Translations under genes and position numbers: made by a program
Shown: in pieces, positions 1-41,857 of the stretch
How the letters are laid out: each line of letters starts with the position of its first letter
Numbering within the stretch: position 1 is the first letter of the stretch
Source: an uncultured virus (IMG/VR IMGVR_UViG_3300034815_000029)
Lineage: Duplodnaviria; Heunggongvirae; Uroviricota; Caudoviricetes
Virus record (IMG/VR): IMGVR_UViG_3300034815_000029
Strand: one strand, 5' to 3'
DNA: 64,000 nucleotides
Notes under the pieces: generated by a model
Database searches by the model: none
What the model was told of the DNA's origin: nothing
The model's input: the letters and a program-made list of their open reading frames with translations, nothing else

Positions 1-127
1 GAGCTATGTGCGGAGCATGACCGAATGGCTCATGCCCTGATGACGCTGCTCGGGGAAACCGAGGACAGCGACTACATGAGTGCGGCAGAACAGCGGGCGA
101 TGGCGCGGGATGCGCTGCCGCCTAACG
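1..127 (+). repeat. 127-bp exact direct repeat, copy 1 (3' part of cassette F)
   Basis: Identical to 35880-36006; diverges right after GCCTAACG. Confidence 0.97.
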
Positions 128-178
128 CTCTCAATGAGGGGCCGCCGAAGGCGGTCCCTCTCGATTGAGTGGTTGGCC
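120..178 (-). repeat. attC site 1 (59 bp)
   Basis: Minus strand reads GGCCAAC CACTC AAT[C]GAG[A]GGG[A]CCGCC TTCG GCGGCCCCTCATT GAGAGC GTTAGGC: R''/L''/L'/R' boxes with the canonical extrahelical bases. Confidence 0.9.
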
Positions 179-692: not shown

Positions 693-751
693 GGCCAACG
701 CAAAAAATGAGGGGCTTGCGCAGCAAGTCCCGCTCGATTGATGGGTTCGGC
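693..751 (-). repeat. attC site 2 (59 bp)
   Basis: GGCCAAC...AATGAGGGG...TCCCGCTCGATT...GTTCGGC imperfect palindrome. Confidence 0.9.
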
Positions 752-773: not shown

Positions 774-1040
774 ATGCGACCAACATTTACAGCAAAGAAC
801 ATGATTATTTTGGTAACAGTTCTGCCGATAAGGATAGCTGCTCTTGGTTTACTCTGGTTCATTTCTTGGATTGGCGAGTTGGCAGATGTTGCGGCAGATT
901 GGGTTAGCTACAAAATACCTGGCCTTGAATTTGTGAGAGAAACAGAGGCAGGACGGGAAGAAAGAATGAGGCGGATTGCTGGATTGAGAAAGACTTCGCA
1001 AGAGCGCATTGACGCTGAAATTGACATGATGCATCGGTGA
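774..1040 (+). CDS. Small membrane protein, cassette 2 (699-1047)
   Basis: GGAGA RBS, hydrophobic N-terminus; flanked by GTTCGGCG and CGCCGAAC. Confidence 0.7.
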   Translation: MRPTFTAKNMIILVTVLPIRIAALGLLWFISWIGELADVAADWVSYKIPGLEFVRETEAGREERMRRIAGLRKTSQERIDAEIDMMHR

Positions 1041-1047
1041 CGCCGAA

Positions 1048-1338
1048 CTTAAATTCTTTAAAGAAATGGGGCGTAGACCAGGCGCTGGTTATTCGCTCGA
1101 TAGAATAAATAATAATCTTGGTTACACCGCAGAAAATTGTAAGTGGGCAACCACCGCCGAGCAACAAAGAAATACCAGAACCACAAAGTTGACTTATGCA
1201 TCTGTTAACGCAATGAAGCTACGCAGAGAGGAAGGTGCAACATACAAACAAATTGCTGCCGAGTTTGGCGTTTCAAGAATGTGCGCCACTCACGCAATTA
1301 TCGGAAAAACATGGGCCAATCATGAAAAAACGGAATAA
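1048..1338 (+). pseudogene. N-terminally truncated HNH endonuclease with C-terminal HTH
   Basis: LKFFKEMGRRP..SLDRINNNLGY..ENCKWAT motif; the frame reaches the cassette crossover and no N-terminal half is present. Confidence 0.7.
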
Positions 1339-22732: not shown

Positions 22733-22761
22733 AGCAACTCCGGAATAGGGGCTATTTTAAG

Positions 22762-23517
22762 TTAGCCGTCAAAGCATCCGCACGGTATTTCGACCGCGCC
22801 CCTAAACATATCCATCTGTGCATCGTCGTACCTCACTAGGTCGGCCCACGCATACGAGCGGCCAAGACCTTTCACGCTGGTTAGTTTCGCGCCTGCTTCC
22901 ATCGCCAGCGCCCGCTGAATCAAATCCGGGTGCTGGCGCTTCAGTTCCAAAATCTCATGCGGCTTGCTGCTCGGGCAAAAGAAGCAGGCGCTTTTCCCCG
23001 GTTGCGGCAGTCCTGCGCGCCGGATCGCTTCCACACATTCATCGCGTCCCCAATCCCACTCAATCAACGGGTAGCGCGTTTCCTCGTACTTCGCTCGGTG
23101 CGCCTCGCCTGCATCAATGCCGACCCAAAACCACGGCGCGGCTATTCCCTGCGCTTTGAGCCACCGCTTCTGCGGCCTGATCTTGTAGTGGTCGCTGCAA
23201 CTCTTAAAGCCATACGCAATTCCAGGCAGTGCGCCGCGTGTAAGGCAGTCGGCTTCAAGGCTTACCGCTTCCGCTACAGTTACGATCCGAGGAAAACCAA
23301 CCCCTTCGCACCAATCGCTTACCGCGTCCTTGTGGCGGTAGGTTTCCGGCCTCTCGCCTCCGGTATCAGCGAACAAAATCAAGTCAGGTCGCTCGCCGCG
23401 TTCGTGCATGCCTATCAGCATGGCCGTGCTGTTCGTACCAGCTCCGTAGCTCACCACAATAGTCGGCGCTGGCAGTACGGCGGCGTTACTCTCAGTTTCT
23501 TGCAAGTTGTTCTCCAA
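22762..23517 (-). CDS. PAPS-reductase-like (PP-loop, Cys-rich) protein, solitary cassette K (22762-23575)
   Basis: SYGAGTNS, FADTGGE, KSACFFCP, CGCFDG; stop codon inside the GTTAGCC core; start codon uncertain. Confidence 0.8.
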   Translation of the reverse strand: MENNLQETESNAAVLPAPTIVVSYGAGTNSTAMLIGMHERGERPDLILFADTGGERPETYRHKDAVSDWCEGVGFPRIVTVAEAVSLEADCLTRGALPGIAYGFKSCSDHYKIRPQKRWLKAQGIAAPWFWVGIDAGEAHRAKYEETRYPLIEWDWGRDECVEAIRRAGLPQPGKSACFFCPSSKPHEILELKRQHPDLIQRALAMEAGAKLTSVKGLGRSYAWADLVRYDDAQMDMFRGAVEIPCGCFDG

Positions 23518-23521: not shown

Positions 23522-23581
23522 GGCTAACAAGTCATTCCACCGGACGGCCTTCGGCCGCGCGGTGAATTCCGAGCGTTATCG
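23522..23581 (+). repeat. attC site K (60 bp)
   Basis: GGCTAAC AAGTC ATT[C]CACCG...CGGTGAAT TCCGAGC GTTATCG; R'' complements GTTAGCCG at 22761. Confidence 0.88.
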
Positions 23582-30407: not shown

Positions 30408-30409
30408 GG

Positions 30410-31539: not shown

Positions 31540-31779
31540 ATGAGCGCTCATGACTATACGGTCGAGTTTGACTATCTGACTGGCGGGGCTATTTCGGCGA
31601 CTGCAACCCCGGACGGCAGCCTGGTTGCGATTGATTTTGTCCTGCTTCATGACCCATCAATGGCAGTCCGCCTCGCTGTCCCCGCAGAGAAATTAGAAAG
31701 TCTGACCAACGCTTTACTTCAGATTCAGAAGGCCCTGGACGATCCGGAAAGCGGAATACATATTCGCCCTTCGCATTAA
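31540..31779 (+). CDS. Hypothetical protein
   Basis: ORF followed by a terminator. Confidence 0.55.
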   Translation: MSAHDYTVEFDYLTGGAISATATPDGSLVAIDFVLLHDPSMAVRLAVPAEKLESLTNALLQIQKALDDPESGIHIRPSH

Positions 31780-31809
31780 TCTTCATATCTAGCATTTCAC
31801 TCTCCCCAT

Positions 31810-31834
31810 AACCCGCTTCGGCGGGTTTTTTGTT
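31810..31834 (+). terminator. Intrinsic terminator
   Basis: ACCCGC-TTCG-GCGGGT followed by a T run. Confidence 0.85.
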
Positions 31835-31885
31835 GCCCGCGATTTGCGGGTTTTTTCATTGTAGCAAATAAAACAATGATAATGG

Positions 31886-31915
31886 TTGACACATAAACAA
31901 TCATCGTTGTATATT
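31886..31915 (+). promoter_or_regulatory. PL-like early promoter upstream of the cassette array
   Basis: TTGACA-18 bp-TATATT with an operator-like motif in the spacer. Confidence 0.7.
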
Positions 31916-32135
31916 GAACCCCATCGCACCATGAACACCGCCCCTACCGGCAATGACCAGCACCAAGGCACGGCCCACGGGTAGACAGCGCGACAGGCCG
32001 CAGGGCGGGCAGCACAGAACTGAAGAACCCGGTAGGCCGGGCGGTAGCTGGACCGTAACAGCCGACTCGGGGGTCCGAAAAATCCCGCCCTGGCCAGGGA
32101 AAACGGCACCAGACAACCCATAACAGGAGAAAACC

Positions 32136-32522
32136 ATGAGCCTGCTACAAAAAACCCTCGACAGCATCGAAGCCGAAGCCGACAAGAAAAGCGCCATCGC
32201 CGTGGCTCACGCCGGGACCATCCATGAACTGGAAACGCTCACCGGAATCCTGAGCGGACTGGGAGCCGGAGAACTCCGGCCCGTCGTGACTTTTCATGAA
32301 CGCACAGAAGACATCCACTCCGCGATGGCGATCGATGTCCGCATCCTGGTGTTCCAGGATCAAGCCGCCACGCTCCGGGCGGTGGATAAATCGGGGCGTA
32401 GCCATACGCTGGAGATCGGCAAAGGCTATGACGGCAGACCCGAAACTACCGTGCGCTTCGAGGGACTGTCCAGCTACATCACGATAATCGACTACGTGCA
32501 CGCAATGGAACAGGCGGCCTGA
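32136..32522 (+). CDS. Early hypothetical protein
   Basis: AGGAG RBS. Confidence 0.7.
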   Translation: MSLLQKTLDSIEAEADKKSAIAVAHAGTIHELETLTGILSGLGAGELRPVVTFHERTEDIHSAMAIDVRILVFQDQAATLRAVDKSGRSHTLEIGKGYDGRPETTVRFEGLSSYITIIDYVHAMEQAA

Positions 32523-32720
32523 ATGCAGACCCTGATCGGCATCCTCGTCCAGCCCTACGAAGAACAGCGCATCAGCCTGCTGATCGAGGGTATGCAGGCG
32601 CAGAAGCACTGGCTGAGTGTGGATGATTGCCTATACGAGATTCTAAACAACGGAATCATCACCTCCGAGGCGCTTTACCGCGCATCGATTAAAAATATGG
32701 AGAACGACCATGCCTATTGA
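32523..32720 (+). CDS. Early hypothetical protein
   Basis: Abuts the previous ORF. Confidence 0.6.
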   Translation: MQTLIGILVQPYEEQRISLLIEGMQAQKHWLSVDDCLYEILNNGIITSEALYRASIKNMENDHAY

Positions 32721-32901
32721 CCAAGTCATCCCGCTCGGCACCGAAACCCGCCCTGAAATCGCGGCCCGCATGGCGCAGGCGCGCGGACTCATGCTGCTGG
32801 TAAAGCAAGCCACCGGACAGATGATCCTGTGCAGCCGCAAACTTCCCGGCTGGCAGCGCTGGATTGTCGCCATTCACACCTACTCACCGGAGGCCGCATG
32901 A
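32710..32901 (+). CDS. Early hypothetical protein
   Basis: GGAG RBS, coupled. Confidence 0.6.
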   Translation: MPIDQVIPLGTETRPEIAARMAQARGLMLLVKQATGQMILCSRKLPGWQRWIVAIHTYSPEAA

Positions 32902-33125
32902 AGCTCATCATCACCGGATTGATTGTTCTCGCCGTCGCTGCCGCCCTGATCGTCAAGAATGCCGATGCGATCGATAGCTATCAGCTCCACAACGACGGCG
33001 TCACCGCCTGCAAACCGCCGCGCAACGAAGCCGAGAAGCTCGTCGCTACGCTCTACAAAAGCGCCGATGGCGGGCCGCTTACGCTGCATTGCGCCTACCA
33101 CGCCACTGTGAGCTTTGCGCTATGA
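32898..33125 (+). CDS. Early protein with signal/TM segment
   Basis: GGAGG RBS, ATGA overlap. Confidence 0.6.
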   Translation: MKLIITGLIVLAVAAALIVKNADAIDSYQLHNDGVTACKPPRNEAEKLVATLYKSADGGPLTLHCAYHATVSFAL

Positions 33126-33346
33126 GCGTAACCCGCTTCCAGATGCTGACACAGGCACAGCGCAACTTGGACATGGCCGACCTGCTGGCAGCCAATGGAG
33201 ACTATGACGGCGCAGCCAGGAACACGGCCGCAGCCAGAGCACTGATTTTCACCGAGAGCACCAACCCGCCCAGCCGGAGCGTGGCGGCAAGCCCGAATAA
33301 CACCGGCAGCTGCAGCGCTGGCCGAGAAAGCCTCCTTACAGCGTGA
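33122..33346 (+). CDS. Early hypothetical protein
   Basis: ATGA overlap. Confidence 0.55.
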   Translation: MSVTRFQMLTQAQRNLDMADLLAANGDYDGAARNTAAARALIFTESTNPPSRSVAASPNNTGSCSAGRESLLTA

Positions 33347-33383
33347 TGCAACCGGCCGCCGGGAGCCGTAATCCCGGCACTTA

Positions 33384-33461
33384 TTTGAACGTAGAGCTAA
33401 CCGGCGGCGCTTTAGCGCCGTCCAGCGACCGAAGGGAGCGAGGTTGAGCGCCTTGTTAGGG
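33384..33461 (-). repeat. attC A (78 bp)
   Basis: Minus strand CCCTAAC AAGGC GCT[C]AACC...GGTTAGC TCTAC GTTCAAA. Confidence 0.88.
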
Positions 33462-33474
33462 GCCAACTGCACGG

Positions 33475-34173
33475 ATGATTGAACTGCTACACACCGACTG
33501 CATGACTTACATGGCGGCGCTGCCAGATGCGGCCTTTGACTTGGCGATTGTTGACCCGCCATACGGGCGCGGCGAGGACGGCGGCACAAACCGATGCCAC
33601 GGCGTGAAGCAGAAGAACGGCGCGGTGCTGCGGTGCCTCGATGGCGGCTACGCGAAGAAGGCTTGGGACAAGGAACCGCCACCGCCTGAGTATTTCGCGG
33701 AACTGCGCAGGGTGGCAAAGCACCAGATTGTTTGGGGTGCGAACTACATGCCGGTGAAACTGCAAGGCGGGGCAATTGTTTGGGACAAGGTGAATGACGG
33801 AGCCGACCAGAGCGGCGCGGAAATAGCCTACTGCAGCTTGAACGAGCGCGTGGACGTGGTGCGCTATATGTGGCGCGGGATGATGCAGGGAGAGGCGGTA
33901 GGCAGCCAACGCCAGCAGGGAAACAAGGCGCTGAACGAGCGCCGGATTCACCCGACACAGAAGCCGGTTAAGTTGTACGAATGGTTGCTGCAGCAGTACG
34001 CGCAGCCGGGAATGAAGGTTTTAGATACCCACCTTGGCAGCGGGAGCGCGGCGATTGCAGCGCACTACTACGGGGTGGATTTTGTGGGGTGCGAGATAGA
34101 TGCCGACTACTGGCTAGCAGCCAAGGAACGGTTTGAGGCTGAAACCCGGCAGATGGCGTTACTTGGCCCCTAA
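33475..34173 (+). CDS. N4C/N6A DNA methyltransferase, cassette A
   Basis: DPPY, HPTQKP, LDTHLGSGS. Confidence 0.9.
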   Translation: MIELLHTDCMTYMAALPDAAFDLAIVDPPYGRGEDGGTNRCHGVKQKNGAVLRCLDGGYAKKAWDKEPPPPEYFAELRRVAKHQIVWGANYMPVKLQGGAIVWDKVNDGADQSGAEIAYCSLNERVDVVRYMWRGMMQGEAVGSQRQQGNKALNERRIHPTQKPVKLYEWLLQQYAQPGMKVLDTHLGSGSAAIAAHYYGVDFVGCEIDADYWLAAKERFEAETRQMALLGP

Positions 34174-34229
34174 CGCATAGGTAAGGGGACTGAGCAACGC
34201 GAAGTTCCCGCTTGACCGCTGAGTTAGGC
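34168..34229 (-). repeat. attC B (62 bp)
   Basis: CCCTAAC...GGTAAGGGGA...TCCCGCTTGACC...GTTAGGC. Confidence 0.9.
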
Positions 34230-34253
34230 GGAATTTTGAAAAAGGAGATGGTC

Positions 34254-34427
34254 GTGGCAAAACTAATAACGTTGAACATTGAGCGATTTGTGGTTTGCAG
34301 CACTGGCGAGGAAATGGAAATACCAGAACCGGCAGACAGTCTTGAAGCCGCGATAAAACTTCGAGACGATAAGCAGGCTGGTGATGAATATGAGACATGG
34401 GAAATTGTGGCGGAAGTTGCCGCCTAA
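34254..34427 (+). CDS. Hypothetical protein, cassette B
   Basis: AAGGAG RBS; stop codon in GCCTAAC. Confidence 0.65.
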   Translation: MAKLITLNIERFVVCSTGEEMEIPEPADSLEAAIKLRDDKQAGDEYETWEIVAEVAA

Positions 34428-34512
34428 CGGCGAAGCTAAGGGGCGCGAGCGATGACAAAACAACGAAGTGAGCCGGATGTTCGAGCGTCACGCCTTGAGC
34501 GCCTTGTTGGGC
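34422..34512 (-). repeat. attC C (91 bp)
   Basis: GCCTAAC...GCTAAGG...CCTTGAGC...GTTGGGC. Confidence 0.82.
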
Positions 34513-34676
34513 GATTGTGGGCATTAGTCTGGAGGCGATGGATGACTGGCCCAGGTGGGCAACCTCGCCGTGTGGTGCGCGTGAAGGGGTGGCGCACTGC
34601 GATTATTGAGAGCGATTGGGAAATGCGGCAGACCATTACGCCATGTTTCTCGATTTTTGGATGGCGGTTTGATTGA
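34452..34676 (+). CDS. Hypothetical protein, cassette C (starts inside the attC loop)
   Basis: ATG at 34452 lies within attC C. Confidence 0.55.
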   Translation: MTKQRSEPDVRASRLERLVGRLWALVWRRWMTGPGGQPRRVVRVKGWRTAIIESDWEMRQTITPCFSIFGWRFD

Positions 34677-34680
34677 TGAC

Positions 34681-34747
34681 GCCCAACGCCTGATTTCACC
34701 GGCCTGAGCGGCTTTTTGCTCAGGTCCGGTGGAATGATTGGTTGGCC
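34681..34747 (-). repeat. attC D (67 bp)
   Basis: GCCCAAC...TTCACCGGCCTGAGC...GCTCAGGTCCGGTGGAA...GTTGGCC. Confidence 0.9.
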
Positions 34748-34775
34748 GGCTGGTAGCTACGAAGTGAGGAATTAA

Positions 34776-35483
34776 ATGGCTGAAAAAGTAACGATAGGGA
34801 CCGCTGAATTGTGGCACGGAGACTGCAGGGAAGTTCTGCCGTTGCTGCCAGACTGCGACCTGATTTTGACAGACCCGCCATACGGCCTGAACGAAGCGGC
34901 CGGAAAGAACCGAAGCCGTGGAAGCGCTGCAGGCGCGAACAAGTGGAAAGGCTCGCGCAACACGACAGGTGTTGGCGTTGCCTCGACGGACTTTGGCGAG
35001 CCGAGCGAATGGGATAGTGCGCCGCCCCCGACGTGGGTGATTGAGATGATGCGCGCCAAGGGGAAATGGCAAGTGATGTTCGGCGGCAACTATTACCCGC
35101 TGCCGCCGGCCAGGTGCTGGCTTGTGTGGGACAAGGACAACGGGGAAACCGATTTCGCGGACTGCGAACTTGCGTGGACGAACTTGCCGAAAGCGGTGCG
35201 CCGGCTGCGCTGGATGTGGAACGGCATGCTGCAGCAGGACATGGCGAACAAGGAAGAACGACAGCACCCGACGCAGAAGCCGGTGCCGGTGATGCGGTGG
35301 GCTTTGCTTCAAGTTCCCGACGCCGAGACGGTTTGCGACCCATTCATGGGCAGCGGAACAACAGGGGTGGCGTGTTGGATGGAAGGGCGGCGGTTCGTCG
35401 GCATTGAGCGCGAACGCCGGTATTTCGATATTGCTTGCGAGCGGATTGCCCGCGCACAGGCACAAGAGCGGCTGTTCGCATGA
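34776..35483 (+). CDS. N4C/N6A DNA methyltransferase, cassette D
   Basis: TDPPY, HPTQKP, DPFMGSGTTG. Confidence 0.92.
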   Translation: MAEKVTIGTAELWHGDCREVLPLLPDCDLILTDPPYGLNEAAGKNRSRGSAAGANKWKGSRNTTGVGVASTDFGEPSEWDSAPPPTWVIEMMRAKGKWQVMFGGNYYPLPPARCWLVWDKDNGETDFADCELAWTNLPKAVRRLRWMWNGMLQQDMANKEERQHPTQKPVPVMRWALLQVPDAETVCDPFMGSGTTGVACWMEGRRFVGIERERRYFDIACERIARAQAQERLFA

Positions 35484-35487
35484 AGAC

Positions 35488-35556
35488 GGCCAACGCAGAG
35501 GTAAGCCGATGACAAAAGCGCAGCTTTTGGCAGTCGGCTTGACCGCCGGGTTAGCC
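35488..35556 (-). repeat. attC E (69 bp)
   Basis: GGCCAAC...GGTAAGCCGA...TCGGCTTGACC...GTTAGCC. Confidence 0.9.
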
Positions 35557-35736
35557 GGGGGCCGAGCCGCACACGAACAATGGGAGCGCACCCGAGGCGA
35601 TGAAAACGAGTGCGATGCAGAGAAACGGCTACACGAAGAGGTTTCAGAAAGTGGCAACACGATACCGAGTGAGTGGTGGCATGGATGGCTCGAACGCTCC
35701 GATGAGTGGCGAGACGAAATCGAACATGCCGGCTAA
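35509..35736 (+). CDS. Hypothetical protein, cassette E (starts inside attC)
   Basis: GAGGT RBS and ATG within attC E; stop codon in GGCTAAC. Confidence 0.55.
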   Translation: MTKAQLLAVGLTAGLAGGRAAHEQWERTRGDENECDAEKRLHEEVSESGNTIPSEWWHGWLERSDEWRDEIEHAG

Positions 35737-35790
35737 CGATTAGCTTAAGGGGCGGCTGTTAAGCCGTCCCGCTTGAAGCGCCGGTTAGGC
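35731..35790 (-). repeat. attC F (60 bp)
   Basis: GGCTAAC...CTTAAGGGGCGGC...GCCGTCCCGCTTGAAG...GTTAGGC. Confidence 0.9.
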
Positions 35791-35804
35791 GCAGAAAGGT
35801 GAAT

Positions 35805-36047
35805 ATGACAGCAAGGCACGAAATAGGGAAGTGGCTGAATGAACAGCCGAACCGCGAGATTGACCGGCGGGTATTGGCCGAGCTATGTGCGGAGCATGAC
35901 CGAATGGCTCATGCCCTGATGACGCTGCTCGGGGAAACCGAGGACAGCGACTACATGAGTGCGGCAGAACAGCGGGCGATGGCGCGGGATGCGCTGCCGC
36001 CTAACGTCGGCGGTAACCGGCTTGCGCCCGCACAGGAGCAACGATGA
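35805..36047 (+). CDS. Hypothetical protein, cassette F (reads into the next attC)
   Basis: AAGGTG RBS; its 3' part is also present at 1-127. Confidence 0.7.
   Translation: MTARHEIGKWLNEQPNREIDRRVLAELCAEHDRMAHALMTLLGETEDSDYMSAAEQRAMARDALPPNVGGNRLAPAQEQR
35880..36006 (+). repeat. 127-bp exact direct repeat, copy 2
   Basis: Identical to 1-127. Confidence 0.97.
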
Positions 36048-36092
36048 AGAACACCCTTGCCGGCGCAAGTCCGGTTGACCAACCAGTTAGGG
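35999..36092 (-). repeat. attC G (94 bp)
   Basis: GCCTAAC...GGTAACCGGCTTGCGCC...GGCGCAAGTCCGGTTGACC...GTTAGGG. Confidence 0.88.
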
Positions 36093-36349
36093 CGCTGCCT
36101 GAGCCGTTGCCGTGCCCGTTTTGTGGGCGACAGCCGGAGCTAGACAACCCGGACACTCTTTACCCGAACGGCACCGGGTGGAAGCCTTGGCGAGGCTTCC
36201 GTTCTTATGTAGGGTTCCGCGAAGTGCCGAAGGAACAATGGTGCTACGGGATGCACTGCTGCGAGTGCTGCGGTGGATGCGGGGCAGAGATTCACGGCGA
36301 TAGTGCAGCCGAGGCGGTAGAGAAGTGGAACCGGCGCCCTAACGCATGA
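36044..36349 (+). CDS. Lar-family restriction alleviation protein, cassette G
   Basis: LPCPFCG...C..CGA...AVEKWNRR; AGGAG RBS and ATG in the attC loop. Confidence 0.8.
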   Translation: MKNTLAGASPVDQPVRALPEPLPCPFCGRQPELDNPDTLYPNGTGWKPWRGFRSYVGFREVPKEQWCYGMHCCECCGGCGAEIHGDSAAEAVEKWNRRPNA

Positions 36350-36401
36350 AATGAGGGGCAGCGCCGCTTTTGCGCTGTCCCGCTCGATTGACGGGTTGTG
36401 C
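36337..36401 (-). repeat. attC H (65 bp)
   Basis: CCCTAAC...AATGAGGGGCAGCGC...GCGCTGTCCCGCTCGATT...GTTGTGC. Confidence 0.9.
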
Positions 36402-36427
36402 GTCAAAACGTAACTACGGAGTGAGGA

Positions 36428-37432
36428 ATGAATGAGTTGGAGCTTTTCGCAGGCGCTGGTGGCGGAATACTCGGGTCAATGTTGCTCGGGCACAGAACCG
36501 TATGCGCCGTTGAATTCGATGCATATGCCAGATCAGTTTTATTGGCCAGACAAGCCGACGGAACATTCCCGACTTTCCCGGTTTGGGACGACGTGCGCAC
36601 CTTTGACGGAACACCGTGGCGCGGAATTGTTGACGTGGTTTCGGGAGGTTTCCCGTGCCAGGATTTGTCGGTTGCGGGGAAAGGGGCAGGACTTGATGGA
36701 AAGCGCAGCGGATTGTGGCGAGAAATGGCGCGGATCATTGGCGAAGTACGACCCCGCTACGCATTCATTGAAAACAGCCCAGCTCTCATTACTAGAGGAC
36801 TTGACCGGGTGCTCTGTGATCTTGCCGCGCTCGGGTTTGATGCGCGATGGGGTGTGCTCGGAGCTTCCGATGTTGGCGCTCCGCACAAGCGCGAGAGAAT
36901 CTGGATATTGGGCTACTCCCGCAGCTTCGGACGGGACACGGGGAGGAAAAATCACCGACAAGATGACGGGGCAATCATTGGTTCAGATGGTCAACACGCC
37001 AGCGAAGTGGCCGACACCAACGGCGAGCGACCACACGGGGCCGGGATATGCCGCGCAGGGCGGGTTGAATTTGAGGACGGCGGTTGCTCTATGGCCAACC
37101 CCGACAGTCTGCGGGAACTACAACCGCAATGGAGCGAGTGCATCGAGCGGGGATGGGTTGGCAACTGCTGTTCGGACGTGGCCAACAGCAACAGCATACA
37201 AGGGCTGGAGTCAGAAACACAACCGAGCGAACACGGACGACCGGCTGGATTATTCGGTGGAACGCGAGAATTTCAGCATTGGCCAGCAGACCCCGCCGAT
37301 GCGCCTGAATCCAAATTGGGTCGAGTGGTTGATGGGTTGGCCAATCGGGCAAACAGAATTAAAGCCATTGGAAACGGGCAGGTTCCGAGAGTTCGAGCAG
37401 CAGCATGGCGGATTTTGACGCACAACGGCTGA
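36428..37432 (+). CDS. C5 cytosine DNA methyltransferase (alpha polypeptide), cassette H
   Basis: LFAGAGG, GGFPCQD, IENS, HKRERIW, IGNGQVP. Confidence 0.92.
   Translation: MNELELFAGAGGGILGSMLLGHRTVCAVEFDAYARSVLLARQADGTFPTFPVWDDVRTFDGTPWRGIVDVVSGGFPCQDLSVAGKGAGLDGKRSGLWREMARIIGEVRPRYAFIENSPALITRGLDRVLCDLAALGFDARWGVLGASDVGAPHKRERIWILGYSRSFGRDTGRKNHRQDDGAIIGSDGQHASEVADTNGERPHGAGICRAGRVEFEDGGCSMANPDSLRELQPQWSECIERGWVGNCCSDVANSNSIQGLESETQPSEHGRPAGLFGGTREFQHWPADPADAPESKLGRVVDGLANRANRIKAIGNGQVPRVRAAAWRILTHNG
36432..37418 (+). CDS. Overlapping +1-frame ORF, putative beta polypeptide of the MTase
   Basis: Open along the whole gene; WPTP repeats; motif IX-like LNPNWVEWLMGWP. Confidence 0.65.
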   Translation: MSWSFSQALVAEYSGQCCSGTEPYAPLNSMHMPDQFYWPDKPTEHSRLSRFGTTCAPLTEHRGAELLTWFREVSRARICRLRGKGQDLMESAADCGEKWRGSLAKYDPATHSLKTAQLSLLEDLTGCSVILPRSGLMRDGVCSELPMLALRTSARESGYWATPAASDGTRGGKITDKMTGQSLVQMVNTPAKWPTPTASDHTGPGYAAQGGLNLRTAVALWPTPTVCGNYNRNGASASSGDGLATAVRTWPTATAYKGWSQKHNRANTDDRLDYSVERENFSIGQQTPPMRLNPNWVEWLMGWPIGQTELKPLETGRFREFEQQHGGF

Positions 37433-37504
37433 GGTAACCCGGCCGCGCCGCTTTTGGCGCGGTCCGGTGAGCGAAGCGAACGAAGGTTGACCGATGGGTT
37501 AGAA
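37420..37504 (-). repeat. attC I (85 bp)
   Basis: GCACAAC...GGTAACC...GGTTGACC...GTTAGAA. Confidence 0.85.
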
Positions 37505-37525
37505 GGCATTTTGATCGGAGCGAAC

Positions 37526-37864
37526 ATGAACATAGCAGAAGCGGCGGAGTGGCTTGAGCAAATGAGCAGCGAGAAGGCCGCACAGATTGTGCTTGAGCAC
37601 TACCACCTGAAACAGCACTTGTGCGCCCAACGCCTCGGCGTGCCGACCGGCTGCGACGATTGGGTTGCGCGCGCCATTGAACGCGGCGAACACCTGCGGG
37701 AATGCGAAATGCAACTGCGGCTGCTGCTCGACAAGGGGAGCGCGATGCTGGCGGAAGTGAAGTGGAAGACGCGCCACACGGAATGCACCAACTGCCGAGG
37801 CACCGGCCGCACTGGCGAAAATGCTTGCTGCATCTGTCGCGGGACGGGCGCTCGTGCCTTCTAA
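37526..37864 (+). CDS. Protein with DnaJ-type CxxCxGxG zinc finger, cassette I
   Basis: CTNCRGTG...CCICRGTG. Confidence 0.75.
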   Translation: MNIAEAAEWLEQMSSEKAAQIVLEHYHLKQHLCAQRLGVPTGCDDWVARAIERGEHLRECEMQLRLLLDKGSAMLAEVKWKTRHTECTNCRGTGRTGENACCICRGTGARAF

Positions 37865-37924
37865 CGCTGGCGTAACCGGCGCGGAGCCGAAGGCGGAGCG
37901 TCCGCGTTGACGCAAATGTTAGGC
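37859..37924 (-). repeat. attC J (66 bp)
   Basis: TTCTAAC...GCGTAAC...GTTGACGC...GTTAGGC. Confidence 0.85.
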
Positions 37925-37935
37925 ATGGAGTGACG

Positions 37936-38286
37936 ATGAAAGTAAAAGATTGGCACGAACCCAAAGACCAAATGTGCAACTTGGGGCGGCATAGTTGGAG
38001 CGTGCCGCGCCTGTTTGAGCTTGCGCGAGAACTCCCGGTGATGGACGTTCCGCTCAACCACCTGAGCCTGTACTACACCTACGAGAAGCTGACGCTTCGG
38101 GAAATGGTGATGCACATGCGTGCGGTCAATGACGCCGACCTAGAGAAGCCCATCATTTTGGACGAGGACGGGGAACTGATGGACGGACGGCATAGGCTGA
38201 TGAAGGCGATGCTGCTAGGAAACGAAACGATTAAGGCGGTACGGTTCGACGAAAACCCGTCGCCGTGCCAAGTGCGAGATGCCTAA
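37936..38286 (+). CDS. ParB/Srx N-terminal-like protein, cassette J
   Basis: PIILDEDGELMDGRHRL. Confidence 0.78.
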   Translation: MKVKDWHEPKDQMCNLGRHSWSVPRLFELARELPVMDVPLNHLSLYYTYEKLTLREMVMHMRAVNDADLEKPIILDEDGELMDGRHRLMKAMLLGNETIKAVRFDENPSPCQVRDA

Positions 38287-38346
38287 CTTAAAGTAGGCGT
38301 CATGCCGTGCATTAACTAATCGAGCAAAACCAATACAGGAGCCAAC

Positions 38347-38550
38347 ATGCCAAGCTTTAAGCCGGACTTGAGAATCACCGTACAAATTGGCGAAGCATCA
38401 TTCTCCATCGGCGGTTTGCTCCTGCCGGATGGCCGGTATCTTATCAAGCGAGGTCGGGTTATTTCCAAGAAAATGCCACGCGCCAGCCTGACAAAGATAT
38501 TTGAAGTGGCTCGTAAGTGGGCGGTTAATCAACGAAACATGGCTAGATAG
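38347..38550 (+). CDS. Hypothetical basic protein
   Basis: AGGAG RBS. Confidence 0.6.
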   Translation: MPSFKPDLRITVQIGEASFSIGGLLLPDGRYLIKRGRVISKKMPRASLTKIFEVARKWAVNQRNMAR

Positions 38551-38554
38551 TTTT

Positions 38555-38720
38555 CATGCTTACTTGATATATTGCCAGCTTGCTAGGCTGCCTTCTTGCT
38601 GGCTTGCAATCTTGCCAGCTTGCTGGTTGGCCTACTTACTGACTAGTTTTATTGCTTGCTGCATGGCTGGATTGCTGGCTTACAAAACGGCTTGCTTGTT
38701 ATCTGATTTGTCTGCTACAA
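38555..38720. repeat. Degenerate short-period repeat tract, putative parS centromere
   Basis: Many TTGC/TGCT/GGCT units directly upstream of parA. Confidence 0.6.
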
Positions 38721-38750
38721 ATACAGTATGTCGTCACCACTGGAAAAATA

Positions 38751-39395
38751 ATGGCTCAGATATTCGCCGTTGCAAACACCAAGGGGGGAGTGGGCAAGAC
38801 CACTACCGCCGTACATTTCGCCGCCTGGCTGTCGTACCGCGGCAGAACCCTGCTGATCGACACCGACAAGCAGGCCACGGCAGGCTCATGGTCGAGCTGG
38901 CGCCGGGATAACTCCCTGTCGCATAATCCCGACACCGTGCTGCTTCTCAATGACATGGTAGCCAAGGAGGGGAGGGCGCTGGCCAAGGGCTACGATTACG
39001 TGGTGATCGATGCCGGTGGCAAGGACAACCAGGGTATGCGCTACGCCATGCTGATCGCCGATAAGGTGATCGTGCCAATGTCGCACTCGAATTTCGATTC
39101 CGCAGCCTGGACCGACATGTCCGAGATCATCGAGGGCGCGAGGATCAATAACCCGAATCTGGCCGTTCAGGTGTTCATGTCCCGCATCGACACCCGGCGC
39201 CGGCCGCCGCAGGATCTGCGCGACTACCTGGCCGAGCAGCAGGTTTCCGTGGCTGATACACAGATCCCGGAGCGTGCCGCCGTCCTCGCCGCAACAGACC
39301 GGGGCATGGCTGTGTTCGAGATCCGCAAGTCGAGCCCGGAGGCGATCGCCTTCGATGATCTGTTCAACGAGATCATGGGAGGCCAGCATGGTTAA
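38751..39395 (+). CDS. parA: Short (type Ib) ParA ATPase
   Basis: KGGVGKTT, LIDTDKQ, YVVIDAGG; no N-terminal HTH. Confidence 0.9.
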   Translation: MAQIFAVANTKGGVGKTTTAVHFAAWLSYRGRTLLIDTDKQATAGSWSSWRRDNSLSHNPDTVLLLNDMVAKEGRALAKGYDYVVIDAGGKDNQGMRYAMLIADKVIVPMSHSNFDSAAWTDMSEIIEGARINNPNLAVQVFMSRIDTRRRPPQDLRDYLAEQQVSVADTQIPERAAVLAATDRGMAVFEIRKSSPEAIAFDDLFNEIMGGQHG

Positions 39396-39735
39396 GGGTA
39401 AGCCGGACTTATCGCACCTCACACCTTCAGCTATCGAGTTCGCCCAGGCCGCAGACAAGCCAATTATTCCGCCTCGAACAATGGCTGAGATTTTCTCTGC
39501 CGAAACAGAGCCGGCTGCGCGCAAGCACGATAAACAACAAGACCGCATTGCGCCACTCCAGGAGGGCAAGGTAGCCGCGCCGTTGCGTCTGGCCCCATCC
39601 GTACAGCAAAGAATCCGCCGGCTGGTATTCGAGCAGTCAGAGCGGCTAGGGGTGAGGGTGACGGCACAGGACTTCATGGAGTCGGCCATCATGGAAAGAT
39701 TGAGCCGGGAAGAAAAGAAGGTTGATCGTGCGTAG
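39388..39735 (+). CDS. Putative small centromere-binding protein (RHH-like)
   Basis: Overlaps the parA stop; flexible N-terminus and beta-alpha-alpha-like C-terminus. Confidence 0.6.
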   Translation: MVKGKPDLSHLTPSAIEFAQAADKPIIPPRTMAEIFSAETEPAARKHDKQQDRIAPLQEGKVAAPLRLAPSVQQRIRRLVFEQSERLGVRVTAQDFMESAIMERLSREEKKVDRA

Positions 39736-39739
39736 ACCG

Positions 39740-40033
39740 ATGGAGCGAAGCGAAATTATCAGGATGGCGCGCGAAGCTGGGATAAACTTTGACCCGGCCG
39801 GACCATCCGATGACGGTATAGATACTTGGTACGGAAACCAGTATCTACCAAGTGGGGCTATTCGGCGATTAATAGAAATCGCACAAGCAGCAGAGCGTGA
39901 GGCGTGTGCGAAGTTGTGCGAAGAACTGATTGCGCCACAGGGAACGGGCAGTCCAAGCGTGTACGAGGTTGCAACCATGGATTGCGCAGAGGCCATTCTG
40001 AATCGTGCGATGACCGATGATGTTCGGGCCTGA
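39740..40033 (+). CDS. Phage hypothetical protein
   Basis: IIRMAREAG...AEREACAKLCE...CAEAI. Confidence 0.7.
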   Translation: MERSEIIRMAREAGINFDPAGPSDDGIDTWYGNQYLPSGAIRRLIEIAQAAEREACAKLCEELIAPQGTGSPSVYEVATMDCAEAILNRAMTDDVRA

Positions 40034-40608
40034 GTCCATATTCGTCGTGCAACGACCGATATTCATCCGGGCAATGACCGATAAGGCTACAAGCCACAAG
40101 CCAGCAAGGGCAGGGCAGGGCGGTGAATTTTGAGTCACGCTAATCCGGTTTTAATACATCTTAATACCGGCGAACATCGGTCAACGCACGAAACATTGGA
40201 GAGCAACATGACAGACAGAGAACTGCTGGAATTGGCTGCAAAGGCATATTGGGGTGATGAAATAGGAGATGTAGTGTCGATCTGCTATAGCGAACTGGAT
40301 GAATCAATTGCATTCACTCATGGCGAAAACCAAGACCATAACGGGCATGACCGCACGCTTCTGTGGAACCCGCTCACAGATGACGGTGACGCGCTGAGGC
40401 TGGCTGTGAGGCTCAAGCTGGAGGTTGCTATCCATGAAACTGAATCCGGCGTAATCAACGGAAACCTGATCGGTGGAATAGAGAAACATGGCGACGACCC
40501 ATACGCCGCCACTCGCCGCGCAATCGTGCGAGCGGCAGCAGAGATTGGCAAAAGTGTAGTGGCGCCAAACTAACGGTCATTGCACGAAGATCAACGGTCA
40601 TTGCACGA
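40003..40608. repeat. Six 16-bp iterons, putative oriV
   Basis: Consensus AWCGGTCATTGCACGA: inverted at 40003, 40045, 40067; direct at 40176, 40572, 40593. Confidence 0.75.
40208..40573 (+). CDS. Phage hypothetical protein
   Basis: MTDRELLELAAKA...WNPLTDDGDALRLAV...ATRRAIVRAAAEIG. Confidence 0.8.
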   Translation: MTDRELLELAAKAYWGDEIGDVVSICYSELDESIAFTHGENQDHNGHDRTLLWNPLTDDGDALRLAVRLKLEVAIHETESGVINGNLIGGIEKHGDDPYAATRRAIVRAAAEIGKSVVAPN

Positions 40609-41852: not shown

Positions 41853-41857
41853 CGATC

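What the first reader, a model, noticed from the sequence alone, without database searches (positions are those of the whole stretch)
33384..38286. Inverted cassette polarity: every ORF is antisense to its attC
Seen: the extrahelical bases put the attC top strand on minus for the 12 sites in the plus-transcribed early region, and on plus for site K in the minus-transcribed late region. So 13 of 13 ORFs read away from their own attC. Established: canonical cassettes mostly read toward their attC from the integron Pc promoter. Inference: this may be a distinct cassette class expressed from phage promoters (TTGACA-18-TATATT at 31886), in which new cassettes enter at the promoter-distal end. Such cassettes would not be driven by Pc in a host integron.
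Basis: partly seen in the sequence, partly recalled or inferred. Interest (0 to 1): 0.88.

Follow-up and report, generated by a model that had tools for sequence, protein, structure and literature searches.

The report
Phage integron cassettes with reversed genes
A phage carries an integron-style array of swappable anti-restriction gene cassettes whose genes all read in the opposite direction to those of bacterial integrons, which points to a separate cassette pool kept by phages.

Summary
The window holds 13 attC-type sites: 12 on the + strand and 1 on the - strand. In all 13 the coding strand is the attC bottom strand: the AAC triplet is in the 5' box and the extrahelical bases sit on the other arm at positions 16/20/23-25 (criteria from Nivina 2016). 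For 13 of 13 cassettes the GTTRRRY before the ORF is the perfect complement of the RYYYAAC after it; this holds for 0 of 13 box pairs within one site. Arrays start with a full site and end in a lone RYYYAAC plus an attI-like motif. The same attC family forms arrays in at least 135 viral and 150 bacterial stretches. Pfam-supported cassette ORFs lie on the bottom strand in 23 of 23 viral cases and on the top strand in 25 of 25 bacterial cases. Related phage contigs and a Thiobacillus prophage carry a true IntI co-oriented with such cassettes. The window has no IntI. Cargo is anti-restriction: methylases, Lar and a PAPS reductase. Six literature searches found no description of this polarity. Caveat: the contig is probably a composite of two variants.

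The parts
31886..31915 (+). Sigma-70-like promoter TTGACA-18-TATATT upstream of the early operon and array
   Evidence: 11 of 12 hexamer matches, the best in 30000-42100. It follows two terminator-like hairpins at 31810-31851. Use of the promoter is not shown.
33358..33378 (+). Terminator-like hairpin abutting the left junction of the array
   Evidence: Its T-rich tail (ACTTATTTGA) runs into the hybrid 5' box TTTGAAC of site A.
33384..33461 (+). attC site A, first and attI-distal site. Its 5' box TTTGAAC is non-canonical (a hybrid with the flank)
   Evidence: 11.9 bits, weak. Its 3' box GTTAGGG is the perfect complement of CCCTAAC at site B.
33475..34173 (+). Cassette 1 ORF: N6/N4 DNA methyltransferase
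   Evidence: PF01555 2.4e-17; phrog_23224 1.3e-50. The stop TAA lies in the R box of site B.
34168..34229 (+). attC site B (extra bases G16, G20, T25)
   Evidence: (61.7 bits)
34248..34427 (+). Cassette 2 ORF, 59 aa, no family
   Evidence: ORF structure only; the stop TAA lies in the R box of site C.
34422..34512 (+). attC site C, with a long variable loop that holds the ATG of the next ORF
   Evidence: (22.3 bits)
34452..34676 (+). Cassette 3 ORF, 74 aa, no family. The start is uncertain
   Evidence: no hit
34681..34747 (+). attC site D (T23; a T.G wobble pair in place of G16)
   Evidence: z -4.2; 47.4 bits
34776..35483 (+). Cassette 4 ORF: N6/N4 DNA methyltransferase
   Evidence: PF01555 2.2e-19; phrog_67 2e-47
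35488..35556 (+). attC site E (G16, G24)
   Evidence: z -5.0; 46.1 bits
35600..35743 (+). Cassette 5: short ORF, frame uncertain
   Evidence: No family hit (on the overlapping frame 35404-35736).
35731..35790 (+). attC site F (G16, G20, T24)
   Evidence: (51.4 bits)
35799..36047 (+). Cassette 6 ORF, 82 aa. Its last 127 nt up to the R box are repeated at window 1-127
35999..36092 (+). attC site G (G16, T23). The loop holds the ATG of Lar. This is the branch point between the two array variants, at 36006
   Evidence: (20.4 bits)
36044..36349 (+). Cassette 7 ORF: Lar-like restriction alleviation protein
   Evidence: PF14354 3.6e-06 (27.5 bits, just under the 28.6 cut-off); phrog_599 2.5e-08. 87.5% identical to a cassette in viral locus L084.
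36337..36401 (+). attC site H (G16, G20, T24)
   Evidence: (53.5 bits)
36428..37432 (+). Cassette 8 ORF: C-5 cytosine DNA methyltransferase
   Evidence: PF00145 8e-32. Relatives at 65-75% identity lie in arrays of L128, L104, L134 and L126; a relative at 53% lies in the Thiobacillus prophage integron.
37420..37504 (+). attC site I (G16; an insertion in the 3' arm)
   Evidence: (16.2 bits, weak)
37454..37864 (+). Cassette 9 ORF (136 aa from TTG, or 112 aa from ATG 37526), cysteine-rich C-terminus
   Evidence: weak phrog_3931 1.3e-4 only
37859..37924 (+). attC site J (G16, C20, T24), the site nearest attI
   Evidence: (43.1 bits)
37930..38286 (+). Cassette 10 ORF, 118 aa, phage family of unknown function. 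A DNA match in another phage record is annotated parB-like
   Evidence: phrog_17560 3.8e-15; H10
38281..38312 (+). Lone R box GCCTAAC plus the attI-like sequence TTAAAGTAGGCGTCATGCCGTGCA: the inferred insertion point
   Evidence: The motif NNNWWNTWGNC is shared with 13 of 43 viral array ends, and with the attI next to intI in bacterial locus L271.
120..178 (+). attC site X (G16, T20, T24), in the alternative branch after cassette 6
   Evidence: z -5.9; 53.5 bits
200..691 (+). Cassette X ORF, 163 aa, no family
   Evidence: no hit
693..751 (+). attC site Y (G16, G20, T24)
   Evidence: (43.1 bits; not in the training set)
774..1040 (+). Cassette Y ORF, 88 aa, hydrophobic, no family
   Evidence: no hit
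1042..1056 (+). Lone R box GCCGAAC plus TTAAATTC: the remnant of an attI of the type that precedes true IntI in L104 and L109
2283..3269 (+). Tyrosine recombinase (phage integrase type, not IntI) downstream of the second array end, on the same strand
   Evidence: PF00589 1.7e-20; TIGR02249 30 bits against a cut-off of 265; phrog_1 4e-50. Homologs sit in the same position in L106, L090, L117 and L127.
23522..23581 (-). attC site K, bottom strand on minus, in the late (minus-transcribed) region
   Evidence: (23.8 bits; not in the training set). 92% identical to a site at the same position in relative L057.
22762..23517 (-). Cassette K ORF: phosphoadenosine phosphosulfate reductase-like protein
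   Evidence: phrog_424 9.9e-38
22746..22767 (-). Lone R box GGCTAAC plus the attI-like TTAAAATAGCCCC (read on the minus strand)

Best explanation
These are genuine integron-type gene cassettes sitting in phage DNA, but with mirror-image coding polarity.

Each mobile unit is: C, the attC hairpin (bottom strand), GTTRRRY, a ribosome-binding site, the ORF, then RYYYAA. The gene therefore lies on the attC bottom strand and downstream of its own attC. In bacterial integrons the gene lies on the top strand and upstream of its attC.

The arrays are embedded co-directionally in phage transcription units, so the cassettes are read through from phage promoters toward an attI-like site at the far end. 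New cassettes would be inserted at that site. In related phages and in a Thiobacillus prophage, an ordinary integron integrase gene sits just beyond it on the same strand.

This window has no IntI. Its arrays are integrase-less arrays that keep an attI, and they would be serviced in trans by the IntI of the host or of a co-resident prophage.

The cargo is counter-defence: orphan methylases, Lar and a PAPS reductase here; Mom, a Tad2-like protein, RNA ligase and more methylases in relatives.

Shown: the site anatomy, the polarity, the cassette-boundary logic, the attI-like ends, the contrast between phage and bacterial arrays, and IntI in relatives.

Inferred: that IntI moves these cassettes; that they are expressed by read-through; and that the polarity is selected because only bottom-strand genes are expressed when the attI-intI module is co-oriented with a phage operon.
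For: (1) attC anatomy on the sense strand. RYYYAAC, a 5-6 nt unpaired spacer, an L box, a variable loop (sites are 59-94 nt long), an L box with bulged G16, an optional base at 20 and T at 23-25, then GTTRRRY. There are 31 extra bases on the arm opposite AAC and 5 on the AAC arm.

(2) Boxes across the ORFs are perfect complements in 13 of 13 cassettes; boxes within one site in 0 of 13. In 73 viral loci the figures are 109 of 189 against 26 of 188.

(3) Array ends carry a lone R box plus an attI-like motif. It is found at 13 of 43 viral array ends, against 35 of 17,935 positions after any AAC. The same motif precedes intI in bacterial locus L271.

(4) The same attC family makes long arrays in Nitrosomonadales-type bacteria. 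IntI scores over the curated cut-off in 5 of 5 genomes tested. In 3 of 3 cases where it adjoins the array, it is on the model's strand.

(5) ORF strand relative to the bottom strand. By Pfam, viral 23 of 23 on the same strand (246 ORFs tested). Bacterial 25 of 25 non-transposase ORFs on the opposite strand (104 ORFs tested). By the longest-ORF heuristic, viral 66 same, 22 opposite, 102 ambiguous; bacterial 3 same, 48 opposite, 38 ambiguous.

(6) True IntI (TIGR02249 479, 475 and 370 bits) lies 81-534 nt beyond array ends in viral L104, L109 and L094, on the bottom strand there; Pfam or PHROG families put cassette ORFs on that same strand in L104 and L109, whereas L094's only inter-site ORF was called opposite-strand and has no family hit. 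L109 also carries baseplate, tail and diversity-generating retroelement genes.

(7) Thiobacillus denitrificans contig G004:C52 is prophage-like. It reads: anti-repressor, four sites with two methylases on the same strand, attI, an intact IntI, then a phage integrase. The same genome's chromosomal array (L271) has opposite-strand ORFs.

(8) Cassettes are shared among viral arrays: Lar at 87.5% identity and the C5 methylase at 65-75%.

(9) In other sediment metagenomes, contigs cover 33419-36006 with 0 differences and then split into two continuations exactly at the R box at 36006.
Against: No IntI in the 64 kb (tblastn best E 0.33), so no recombinase for these sites is in hand here.

Nothing shows activity or expression. 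No RNA run was listed.

Sites A and I score weakly (11.9 and 16.2 bits).

Seven of the 13 window ORFs have no family support.

The longest-ORF heuristic called 22 of 190 viral intervals opposite-strand. None of these was confirmed or refuted by Pfam.

The comparison sets came from one strand-specific pattern of one attC family.

The model was trained on the window's own sites.

The published phage array of TJE1 has canonical polarity, so this is not a general property of phages.

The 10-cassette array as assembled is probably a composite.

The layout 'array then integrase on the same strand' is also what a lambda-like early operon would give. Adjacency of the non-IntI integrases is therefore weak evidence.
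Confidence: 0.8

Rival explanations
1. The hairpins act in RNA, for example as intercistronic processing, stabilising or attenuating stem-loops of the early transcript. That would tie them to the sense strand. Under this reading the mosaic junctions arise by homologous recombination between conserved intergenic repeats, as proposed for the promoter/stem-loop cassettes of T4-type phages (recalled from memory, not read here).
For: All 13 sites are on the sense strand. They sit between genes. Two of them hold the next start codon in their loop. G.T pairs occur more often on the sense fold.
Against: In bacterial arrays the same family lies antisense to the genes, in 25 of 25 cases, so it has no sense-RNA role there. 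Bulge positions 16/20/24 match the requirements of integrase binding. The 7-nt boxes are complementary across the ORFs and not within the hairpin (13 of 13 against 0 of 13); an RNA stem would select the reverse. The attI-like ends and adjacent IntI in relatives are not explained. No Rfam family matched.
Confidence: 0.04
2. The arrays are dead fragments of host chromosomal integrons that phages picked up by illegitimate or off-target recombination, which is the possibility raised by Qi et al. 2023. Their orientation relative to the genes would then be incidental.
For: No IntI in the window. The left junction abuts a terminator-like hairpin, as Qi et al. noted for TJE1. The attI remnant at 1049 is cut to 8 nt and is followed by an HNH-like gene.
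Against: Host arrays of this family carry top-strand genes, so a captured fragment would keep that relation whichever way it was inserted. The relation between a gene and its attC cannot be changed by flipping the whole fragment. Viral arrays show 23 of 23 bottom-strand genes. The cargo is useful to a phage. Three separate loci in one window each match the local direction of transcription. Cassettes are shared between phages. Cassette content varies between samples at the attI-proximal end.
Confidence: 0.08
3. The cassettes are moved not by IntI but by the phage's own tyrosine recombinase (the family of 2283-3269), which has taken over attC-like sites.
For: Homologs of this recombinase (35-37% identity in L106 and L090; weaker in L117 and L127) lie just beyond array ends on the same strand. 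In all, 10 of 11 tyrosine recombinases found within about 1 kb of array ends are co-oriented with the array.
Against: The sites meet the IntI-specific bottom-strand signature. The attI motif is that of bacterial integrons next to IntI. True IntI is present in L104, L109, L094 and the Thiobacillus prophage, and in the prophage a separate phage integrase follows it. This shows the two enzymes coexist with different jobs. The recombinase scores 30 bits against a cut-off of 265 on the IntI model, and I did not show that it has the IntI-specific extra helix. A temperate phage would have int at this place anyway.
Confidence: 0.07
4. The apparent polarity is an artefact of a chimeric assembly or of wrong gene calls.
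For: Window 1-127 equals 35880-36006 exactly, the size of an assembler word overlap. Depths in other samples differ about tenfold between the two continuations. The 64 kb therefore probably joins a 35.9-kb circular phage to part of a second element.
Against: Polarity is a local property of each site and its neighbouring ORF, and it is the same in both parts. Six ORFs have family support on that strand. Independent contigs from other samples cover 33419-36006 with 0 differences. Twenty other viral loci show the same polarity.
Confidence: 0.01

Closest known systems
Canonical bacterial integrons (mobile class 1; sedentary chromosomal integrons such as those of Nitrosomonadales-type Betaproteobacteria)
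   Same: The attC architecture, extrahelical bases, AAC/GTT crossover boxes and circularisable cassette logic. An attI at one end. In relatives, an intI whose coding strand is the attC bottom strand and whose 5' end faces attI. IntI proteins from the phage-borne integrons are 59-62% identical to chromosomal ones.
   Different: The cassette gene lies on the bottom strand and downstream of its own attC. Transcription therefore runs toward attI and intI instead of away from them, and Pc could not drive these genes. Cargo is counter-defence rather than defence or resistance. The window's arrays lack IntI.
[quoted passage not shown]
   Same: attC arrays in phages. Orphan DNA methylases as cargo. 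Phage attC bottom strands are recombined by IntI1 (5 of 6 sites in their assay). A terminator lies at an array boundary.
   Different: They report 17 CALINs and 3 complete integrons. They describe the arrays as typical, and they do not discuss the polarity of gene against attC. By my check their TJE1 array is canonical: the top strand is the gene strand. Their supplementary tables, which I could not see, may list attC strands.
'Inverted integrase' integrons of Treponema, Chlorobi and other groups (recalled from memory: Coleman 2004, Boucher 2007; not read here)
   Same: intI and the cassette genes point the same way.
   Different: As I recall it, there the intI gene is flipped relative to attI (intI, then attI, then cassettes) and the cassettes keep the normal gene-attC relation. 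Here the attI-intI relation is normal, and it is the gene inside each cassette that is flipped (cassettes, then attI, then intI).
Inverted cassettes with their own promoters (for example toxin-antitoxin cassettes) in chromosomal integrons (recalled from memory; only the search listing of PMC13108822 was seen)
   Same: Individual cassettes whose gene is antisense to Pc.
   Different: Those are a minority within otherwise canonical arrays. In my bacterial sample, toxin cassettes (YoeB, HicA, ParE, BrnT) were on the canonical strand. Here whole arrays are uniformly reversed.
attG secondary-site insertion of cassettes (Loot et al., bioRxiv 2022.09.11.507474; passages read)
   Same: Cassettes outside a platform that depend on resident promoters. 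This is a possible route for the single cassette K.
   Different: attG needs only GWT. The three array ends in the window share a longer attI-like motif.

Membership tests
Integron attC site | Terminal inverse-core and core boxes RYYYAAC ... GTTRRRY with a conserved AAC/GTT | tested here: met
   all 13 sites have AAC and GTT. The 5' boxes of A (TTTGAAC) and K (CGATAAC) are off-consensus, as expected for hybrid end boxes.
Integron attC site | [quoted passage not shown] | tested here: met
   G16 in 11 of 13 sites, G17 in K, none in D. A base at 20 in 6 sites. T at 23-25 in 9. 31 extra bases on that arm against 5 on the other.
Integron attC site | An unpaired central spacer of 5-6 nt and a variable terminal structure; low sequence conservation but a conserved fold | tested here: met
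   spacers of 4-6 nt; sites of 59-94 nt; mean column identity 47%; GAA or GAAG loops in X, J and K. Fold z-scores range from -5.9 to +0.1, so not every site folds better than shuffles.
Integron gene cassette | Circularisable unit: the half box at the start of the cassette matches the box of its own attC, not that of the neighbouring cassette | tested here: met
   13 of 13 perfect across the ORFs, 0 of 13 within sites.
Integron gene cassette | The gene lies on the attC top strand, reading toward its own attC (typical of the family, not strictly defining) | tested here: not met
   all 13 ORFs are on the bottom strand. The bacterial control gave 25 of 25 on the top strand.
Complete integron | An integron integrase gene (IntI, TIGR02249 over its cut-off) next to attI | tested here: not met
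   the only tyrosine recombinase tested scores 30 bits against 265; tblastn with two phage IntI proteins finds nothing in the window (best E 0.33). The feature is met in relatives L104, L109, L094 and G004:C52.
Complete integron | An attI site at the array end facing intI | tested here: inconclusive
   the ends carry a motif shared with attI next to intI in L271 and with 13 of 43 viral array ends. No binding or recombination data exist, and the end at 1049 keeps only 8 nt.
[quoted passage not shown] | Two or more attC sites in series with no IntI nearby | tested here: met
Integron attC site | Recombined as a folded bottom strand by IntI | not testable with these tools
   Needs a suicide-conjugation or in vitro assay.

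The most novel reading that the evidence does not exclude
Phages of Thiobacillus/Gallionella-type Betaproteobacteria keep their own mirror-polarity integrons, a counter-defence 'biobank'. In these, IntI, attI and attC are standard, but every cassette gene sits on the attC bottom strand. Cassettes and intI then form one phage-driven transcription unit, and new genes enter at its far end. Because polarity decides which promoter can read a cassette, the phage and host cassette pools would be mutually silent when exchanged. One recombination machinery would serve two expression-isolated gene pools on the two sides of the arms race.
Probability: 0.55. Interest if true: 0.9.

Novelty: new variant of a known kind. 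Interest (0 to 1): 0.85.

Why it matters
Integrons are understood as bacterial devices in which strand selectivity for the attC bottom strand guarantees that promoterless genes face Pc. Here the same machinery appears in phages with the gene flipped inside the cassette. It is consistent across 20 viral loci and a prophage, while the hosts' own arrays of the same attC family stay canonical.

If this holds, three things follow.

- It defines a second, phage-side cassette pool rich in anti-restriction and anti-defence genes. That pool is a ready source for discovering counter-defence genes among the many unannotated small cassettes.

- It shows that cassette polarity is an evolvable trait that partitions gene pools by who can express them.

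- It offers a natural test of how cassettes are born, since the gene-attC relation cannot be changed by simply inverting a cassette.

It also warns annotation pipelines that assume genes read toward their attC.

Tried and rejected
Rfam at gathering thresholds: no match in the window.

GenBank phages: no near match. In distant mode only methylase genes matched.

ParA as a bait for related loci: 11 pattern matches, none confirmed.

The window's own assembly is not held. G001 is a 20.2-kb piece identical to 11642-31830 and does not reach the arrays.

The repeat 15807-15869 / 22670-22732 was examined as a possible empty insertion site. It is a shared late-promoter-like element, not an empty site.

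Relatives of the terminase lacking a cassette at the K position were too diverged to give a clean empty site.

A codon log-odds caller for the coding strand failed on known methylase cassettes and was dropped. I replaced it with a longest-ORF heuristic and Pfam support.

Hard-constraint folding did not always keep the R boxes paired, so I used arm-against-arm alignment instead.

The IntI of genome G002 proved to lie on a different contig from the L227 array, so that case was left out of the adjacency count.

MW202573 gave only one weak model hit, inside a methylase gene, and was not pursued.

Sequencing runs: no RNA holder was listed. Parts of 36600-40000 without contig cover in runs X3-X5 are not interpreted.

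The joint '36006 to 36377' is an alignment effect of the similar 3' arms of sites H and Y, not a deletion.

No structure prediction, complex prediction or large protein search was needed.

Full report
WHAT IS THERE

The window is phage DNA. It holds terminase, portal, capsid-protease, Nu1-like and adaptor genes on the minus strand. On the plus strand it holds a repressor, a CII-like gene, DnaB, an early operon, ParA, TrfA and a 4626-aa DarB-like protein.

Between the early genes lie hairpin sites of one design: RYYYAAC, a short unpaired spacer, a stem with single-base bulges, a variable loop, and GTTRRRY.

A covariance model built from seven of them and run over all 64 kb with filters off found thirteen. 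Ten lie in series at 33384-37924. Two lie at 120-751. One lies on the minus strand at 23522-23581, among the late genes. Six of the thirteen were not used for training. The reverse strand of each site scores far lower, at most 16.4 bits. Only ten of the twelve plus-strand sites lie inside the stated coordinates.

WHICH STRAND IS WHICH

Nivina et al. 2016 (passages read) define the recombined bottom strand. It has the AAC triplet in its 5' box. Its extrahelical bases sit on the opposite arm: usually G at 16, sometimes a base at 20, and a conserved T at 23/24. Its loops often read GAA.

I aligned each 5' arm against the reverse complement of its 3' arm. This gave G16 in 11 of 13 sites (G17 in K, none in D). 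A base at 20 is present in 6 sites, and T at 23-25 in 9. Overall, 31 extra bases lie on the arm opposite AAC and 5 lie on the AAC arm. Those five lie in the poorly aligned distal parts of A, C and K.

The strand that carries this signature is the coding strand in every case. Six of the 13 ORFs have family support on that strand: two N6/N4 methylases, a C5 methylase, Lar (just under Pfam's cut-off but supported by PHROGs), phrog_17560 and a PAPS reductase. The other seven are short ORFs without a family.

CASSETTE LOGIC

In an integron, the crossover inside the boxes makes the half box at the start of a cassette match the box of that cassette's own attC, not the box of its neighbour.

In the window, the GTTRRRY that precedes each ORF is the perfect 7-nt complement of the RYYYAAC that follows it in 13 of 13 cassettes. 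The two boxes of one hairpin are never perfect complements: 0 of 13, with a mean of 5.1 of 7 positions matching. An RNA stem or a protein-binding palindrome would select the opposite pattern.

Each array starts with a full site whose 5' box is off-consensus: TTTGAAC at site A and CGATAAC at site K. Each ends with a lone RYYYAAC followed by TTAAAGTAGGC (38288), TTAAATTC (1049) or TTAAAATAGCC (minus strand, 22760).

Read on the opposite strand, this is exactly the canonical layout: attI, G|TTRRRY, the cassettes, and a last attC. So the array-level anatomy, independently of the bulges, says that the attC top strand is antisense to the genes. It also says that the insertion point is at the promoter-distal end.

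IS IT A CLASS?

A strand-specific pattern taken from the sites found at least 135 stretches in viral contigs and at least 150 in bacterial genomes. The bacterial hits were mostly Thiobacillus, Gallionella, Methylotenera, Methylobacillus, Sideroxydans and other Betaproteobacteria.

I ran the model over 73 viral loci, one per contig region, and it gave 257 matches at E<=0.02. I left out nine overlapping duplicates and the 55 loci that were not listed. I also ran it over 43 bacterial loci, which gave 178 matches at E<=0.05, including overlapping duplicates. Within a locus, the matches share one strand.

IntI scores over NCBIfam's cut-off in 5 of 5 bacterial genomes tested. Where it adjoins the array (L259, L271, L291; 3 of 3 cases), its coding strand is the model's strand, as in canonical integrons. 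A fourth genome's IntI proved to lie on another contig and was not counted.

I then asked on which strand the genes between consecutive sites lie.

- The longest-ORF heuristic gave, for bacteria, 3 same, 48 opposite and 38 ambiguous out of 89 intervals. For viral loci it gave 66 same, 22 opposite and 102 ambiguous out of 190.

- Because GC-rich DNA makes shadow ORFs, I sent every longest ORF of at least 70 aa on either strand to Pfam at E<=1e-5.

- Viral: 246 ORFs (145 same-strand, 101 opposite) gave 23 hits, all on the bottom strand (12, 11), from 20 loci on 19 contigs. One hit, a terminase in a 2.9-kb interval of L095, is not a cassette. That leaves 22 of 22.

- Bacterial: 104 ORFs (34 same, 70 opposite) gave 28 hits, 26 opposite and 2 same. 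Three of the 28 are IS transposases (two same, one opposite). That leaves 25 of 25 cassette genes on the top strand, from 13 loci.

The viral cargo is eight DNA methylases of four families, Mom, a Tad2-like anti-Thoeris domain, two RNA ligases, DUF551, DUF3850, AlpA and HTH proteins, and HNH and GIY-YIG nucleases. The bacterial cargo is toxins, GNAT, glyoxalase, GFA, NERD, Mrr and the like.

PHAGE-BORNE COMPLETE INTEGRONS

I looked 3 kb beyond the 36 viral array ends that had an ORF of at least 150 aa there. Eleven have a tyrosine recombinase within about 1 kb, and ten of these are on the array's strand.

Three of the eleven are true IntI: L104 at 479 bits, L109 at 475 and L094 at 370, against a cut-off of 265.

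L109 reads, all on one strand: baseplate, tail, tail fibre, the Avd and reverse transcriptase of a diversity-generating retroelement, four sites with a Dam methylase, GGCTAAC|TTAAATTC, and 81 nt later IntI.

L104 reads: phage-family cassettes, a DHH phosphoesterase, a C5 methylase, the same TTAAATTC, IntI, and a ParB-like gene.

The window's C5 methylase led to contig C52 of Thiobacillus denitrificans RG. This is a 24.8-kb prophage-like contig, with a minor tail protein, a replication initiator, a helicase loader, a holin and an anti-repressor. There, four plus-strand sites carry two methylases on the plus strand. They are followed by an attI, an intact IntI (457 bits) and then a phage integrase.

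The same genome's chromosomal array (L271) sits next to a frameshifted intI and has its genes on the other strand. So one host carries both polarities, sorted by context.

The phage-borne IntI proteins are 64-66% identical to each other and 59-62% identical to chromosomal ones. They are ordinary integron integrases.

THE attI END

Thirteen of 43 viral array ends match NNNWWNTWGNC right after the box. Only 35 of 17,935 positions after any AAC in the same loci do so. Some of the 43 'ends' are really followed by a further site that the model missed.

The attI next to intI in L271 reads AAC|GTTAAATAGCC, almost the same as in viral L088.

The window's second array end keeps only TTAAATTC, the start of the L104/L109 attI. 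It is followed by an HNH-like ORF and a non-IntI integrase.

The window has no IntI.

ASSEMBLY CAVEAT AND POPULATION DATA

Window 1-127 equals 35880-36006 exactly and then diverges right after CCTAACG. A 127-nt identity at a contig start is what an assembler's word overlap looks like.

Read that way, 128-36006 is a 35,879-bp circle. It holds X, Y, the attI remnant, HNH, Int, the late genes, the early operon and cassettes 1-6. The stretch 36007-64000 belongs to a second element with Lar, the C5 methylase, cassettes 9-10, an attI, ParA, TrfA and the DarB-like gene.

Two observations fit this reading. The 20.2-kb identical record G001 is rated 51% complete. In other sediment metagenomes, contigs cover 33419-36006 with no difference and then continue into site X at depth 12.5 and 10.7, while the continuation into site G has depth 5.9 and 1.2 (runs X2 and X4).

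So the ten-cassette array is probably a composite of two variants. They share the attI-distal cassettes 1-6 and differ in the attI-proximal ones. That is the pattern expected if cassettes are added at attI, although exchange between two phages at an attC would give the same pattern. Polarity is unaffected by this caveat.

HOW IT MOST LIKELY WORKS

Shown: standard attC, attI-like and (in relatives) IntI parts, with genes on the bottom strand, co-oriented with intI and with the surrounding phage operon.

Inferred: IntI, supplied by the host or by a co-resident prophage for this phage, folds the bottom strand and exchanges cassettes at AA|C. Cassettes are expressed by read-through from phage promoters such as the one at 31886.

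The attI-intI module has a fixed geometry. A phage that keeps all its genes co-directional can therefore express only cassettes whose gene lies on the bottom strand. That would select and maintain a mirror-polarity pool.

One consequence is that the sense strand, which is the non-template strand, is the recombinogenic strand. Transcription might then expose it. This is speculation.

The gene-attC relation cannot be produced by inserting a canonical cassette backwards. These cassettes must arise, or be converted, separately.

WHAT IS KNOWN

Qi et al. 2023 reported attC clusters and a few integrons in phages, methylase cargo, and recombination of phage attC sites by IntI1. They do not address polarity. 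Their TJE1 array is canonical by my check: the extra C and A lie on the 5' arm of the gene strand, and the model hits the opposite strand at 14 bits. Their supplements were not available to me.

Six full-text searches and term look-ups in two preprints found no description of reversed cassette polarity in phage arrays.

The 'inverted integrase' integrons, inverted toxin-antitoxin cassettes and T4 stem-loop cassettes are recalled from memory. They differ as set out under Closest known systems.

VERDICT

This is a new variant of a known kind: integrons or CALINs of phages with mirror-image cassettes.

Confidence is 0.8 that these are IntI-type cassettes with reversed gene polarity maintained in phages. 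It is lower, about 0.55, for the wider claim of a separate, expression-isolated phage cassette pool.

Noticed in passing
window 1-127 and 35880-36006: An exact 127-nt repeat ends at the attC R box. It implies a 35,879-bp circular phage (128-36006) joined in the contig to part of a second element that bears ParA, TrfA and a DarB-like gene (36007-64000). The identical 20.2-kb record G001 is rated 51% complete.
   Followed up: partly
window 42023-55903 (-): A 4626-aa ORF matches DarB-like antirestriction proteins (phrog_10089, 1954 bits) and has methylase, helicase and lysin-like segments.
   Followed up: no
window 38556-38700: A run of 8-bp-period repeats (TTGCnnGC type, 8 copies) lies just upstream of, or overlapping, the start of ParA. 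It may be a centromere-like or iteron region.
   Followed up: no
window 39727-40082 and 40176-40609: Two families of 15-17-nt direct repeats, inverted relative to each other, flank ORF 40130-40573 just upstream of the TrfA-like initiator. They look like iterons of a plasmid-type origin.
   Followed up: no
window 15807-15869 and 22670-22732: A 63-nt repeat at 89% identity (AAAAACGCAACCCATCCGGCCCAAGTAGTTGACGCG...) lies ahead of two late genes on the minus strand. It is probably a late promoter or activator site. Cassette K sits immediately upstream of one copy.
   Followed up: partly
window 1066 to about 1330 (+): An ORF with an HNH_3-like motif (the motif is recognised from memory; no family search was run on it) sits where relatives L104 and L109 have IntI. 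Viral locus L082 also has an HNH_3 gene just beyond its array end.
   Followed up: no
window 34422-34512 and 35999-36092: The two longest attC sites (C and G) hold the start codon of the downstream ORF inside their variable loop. Several stop codons are the TAA of the R box.
   Followed up: no
window 30438-30460 and 31869-31891: A 23-nt inverted repeat, 87% complementary, overlaps the -35 region of the 31886 promoter and the start of the repressor gene region. It looks like a shared operator.
   Followed up: no
L377 16783-19999 and L378 (G004:C52); L271 (same genome): One Thiobacillus denitrificans genome carries two integrons. One is prophage-borne, with an intact IntI and reversed cassettes. 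The other is chromosomal, with a frameshifted intI and canonical cassettes of the same attC family.
   Followed up: partly
L109 4135-5290: Diversity-generating retroelement genes (Avd and a reverse transcriptase) lie directly upstream of the cassette array of this phage fragment.
   Followed up: no
L057 2131-4281 and L051 6393-7740: Relatives of the window's terminase carry two or more methylase cassettes (N6_N4, MT-A70) at the position where the window has the single PAPS-reductase cassette K. Their first site is 81-92% identical to site K.
   Followed up: partly
L227 (Methylotenera MAG): A chromosomal array of at least 27 sites in 12 kb. Ten intervals of about 245 nt between CCCTAAC/GTTAGGG boxes hold no ORF over 50 aa. 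They look like repeated empty or non-coding cassettes.
   Followed up: no
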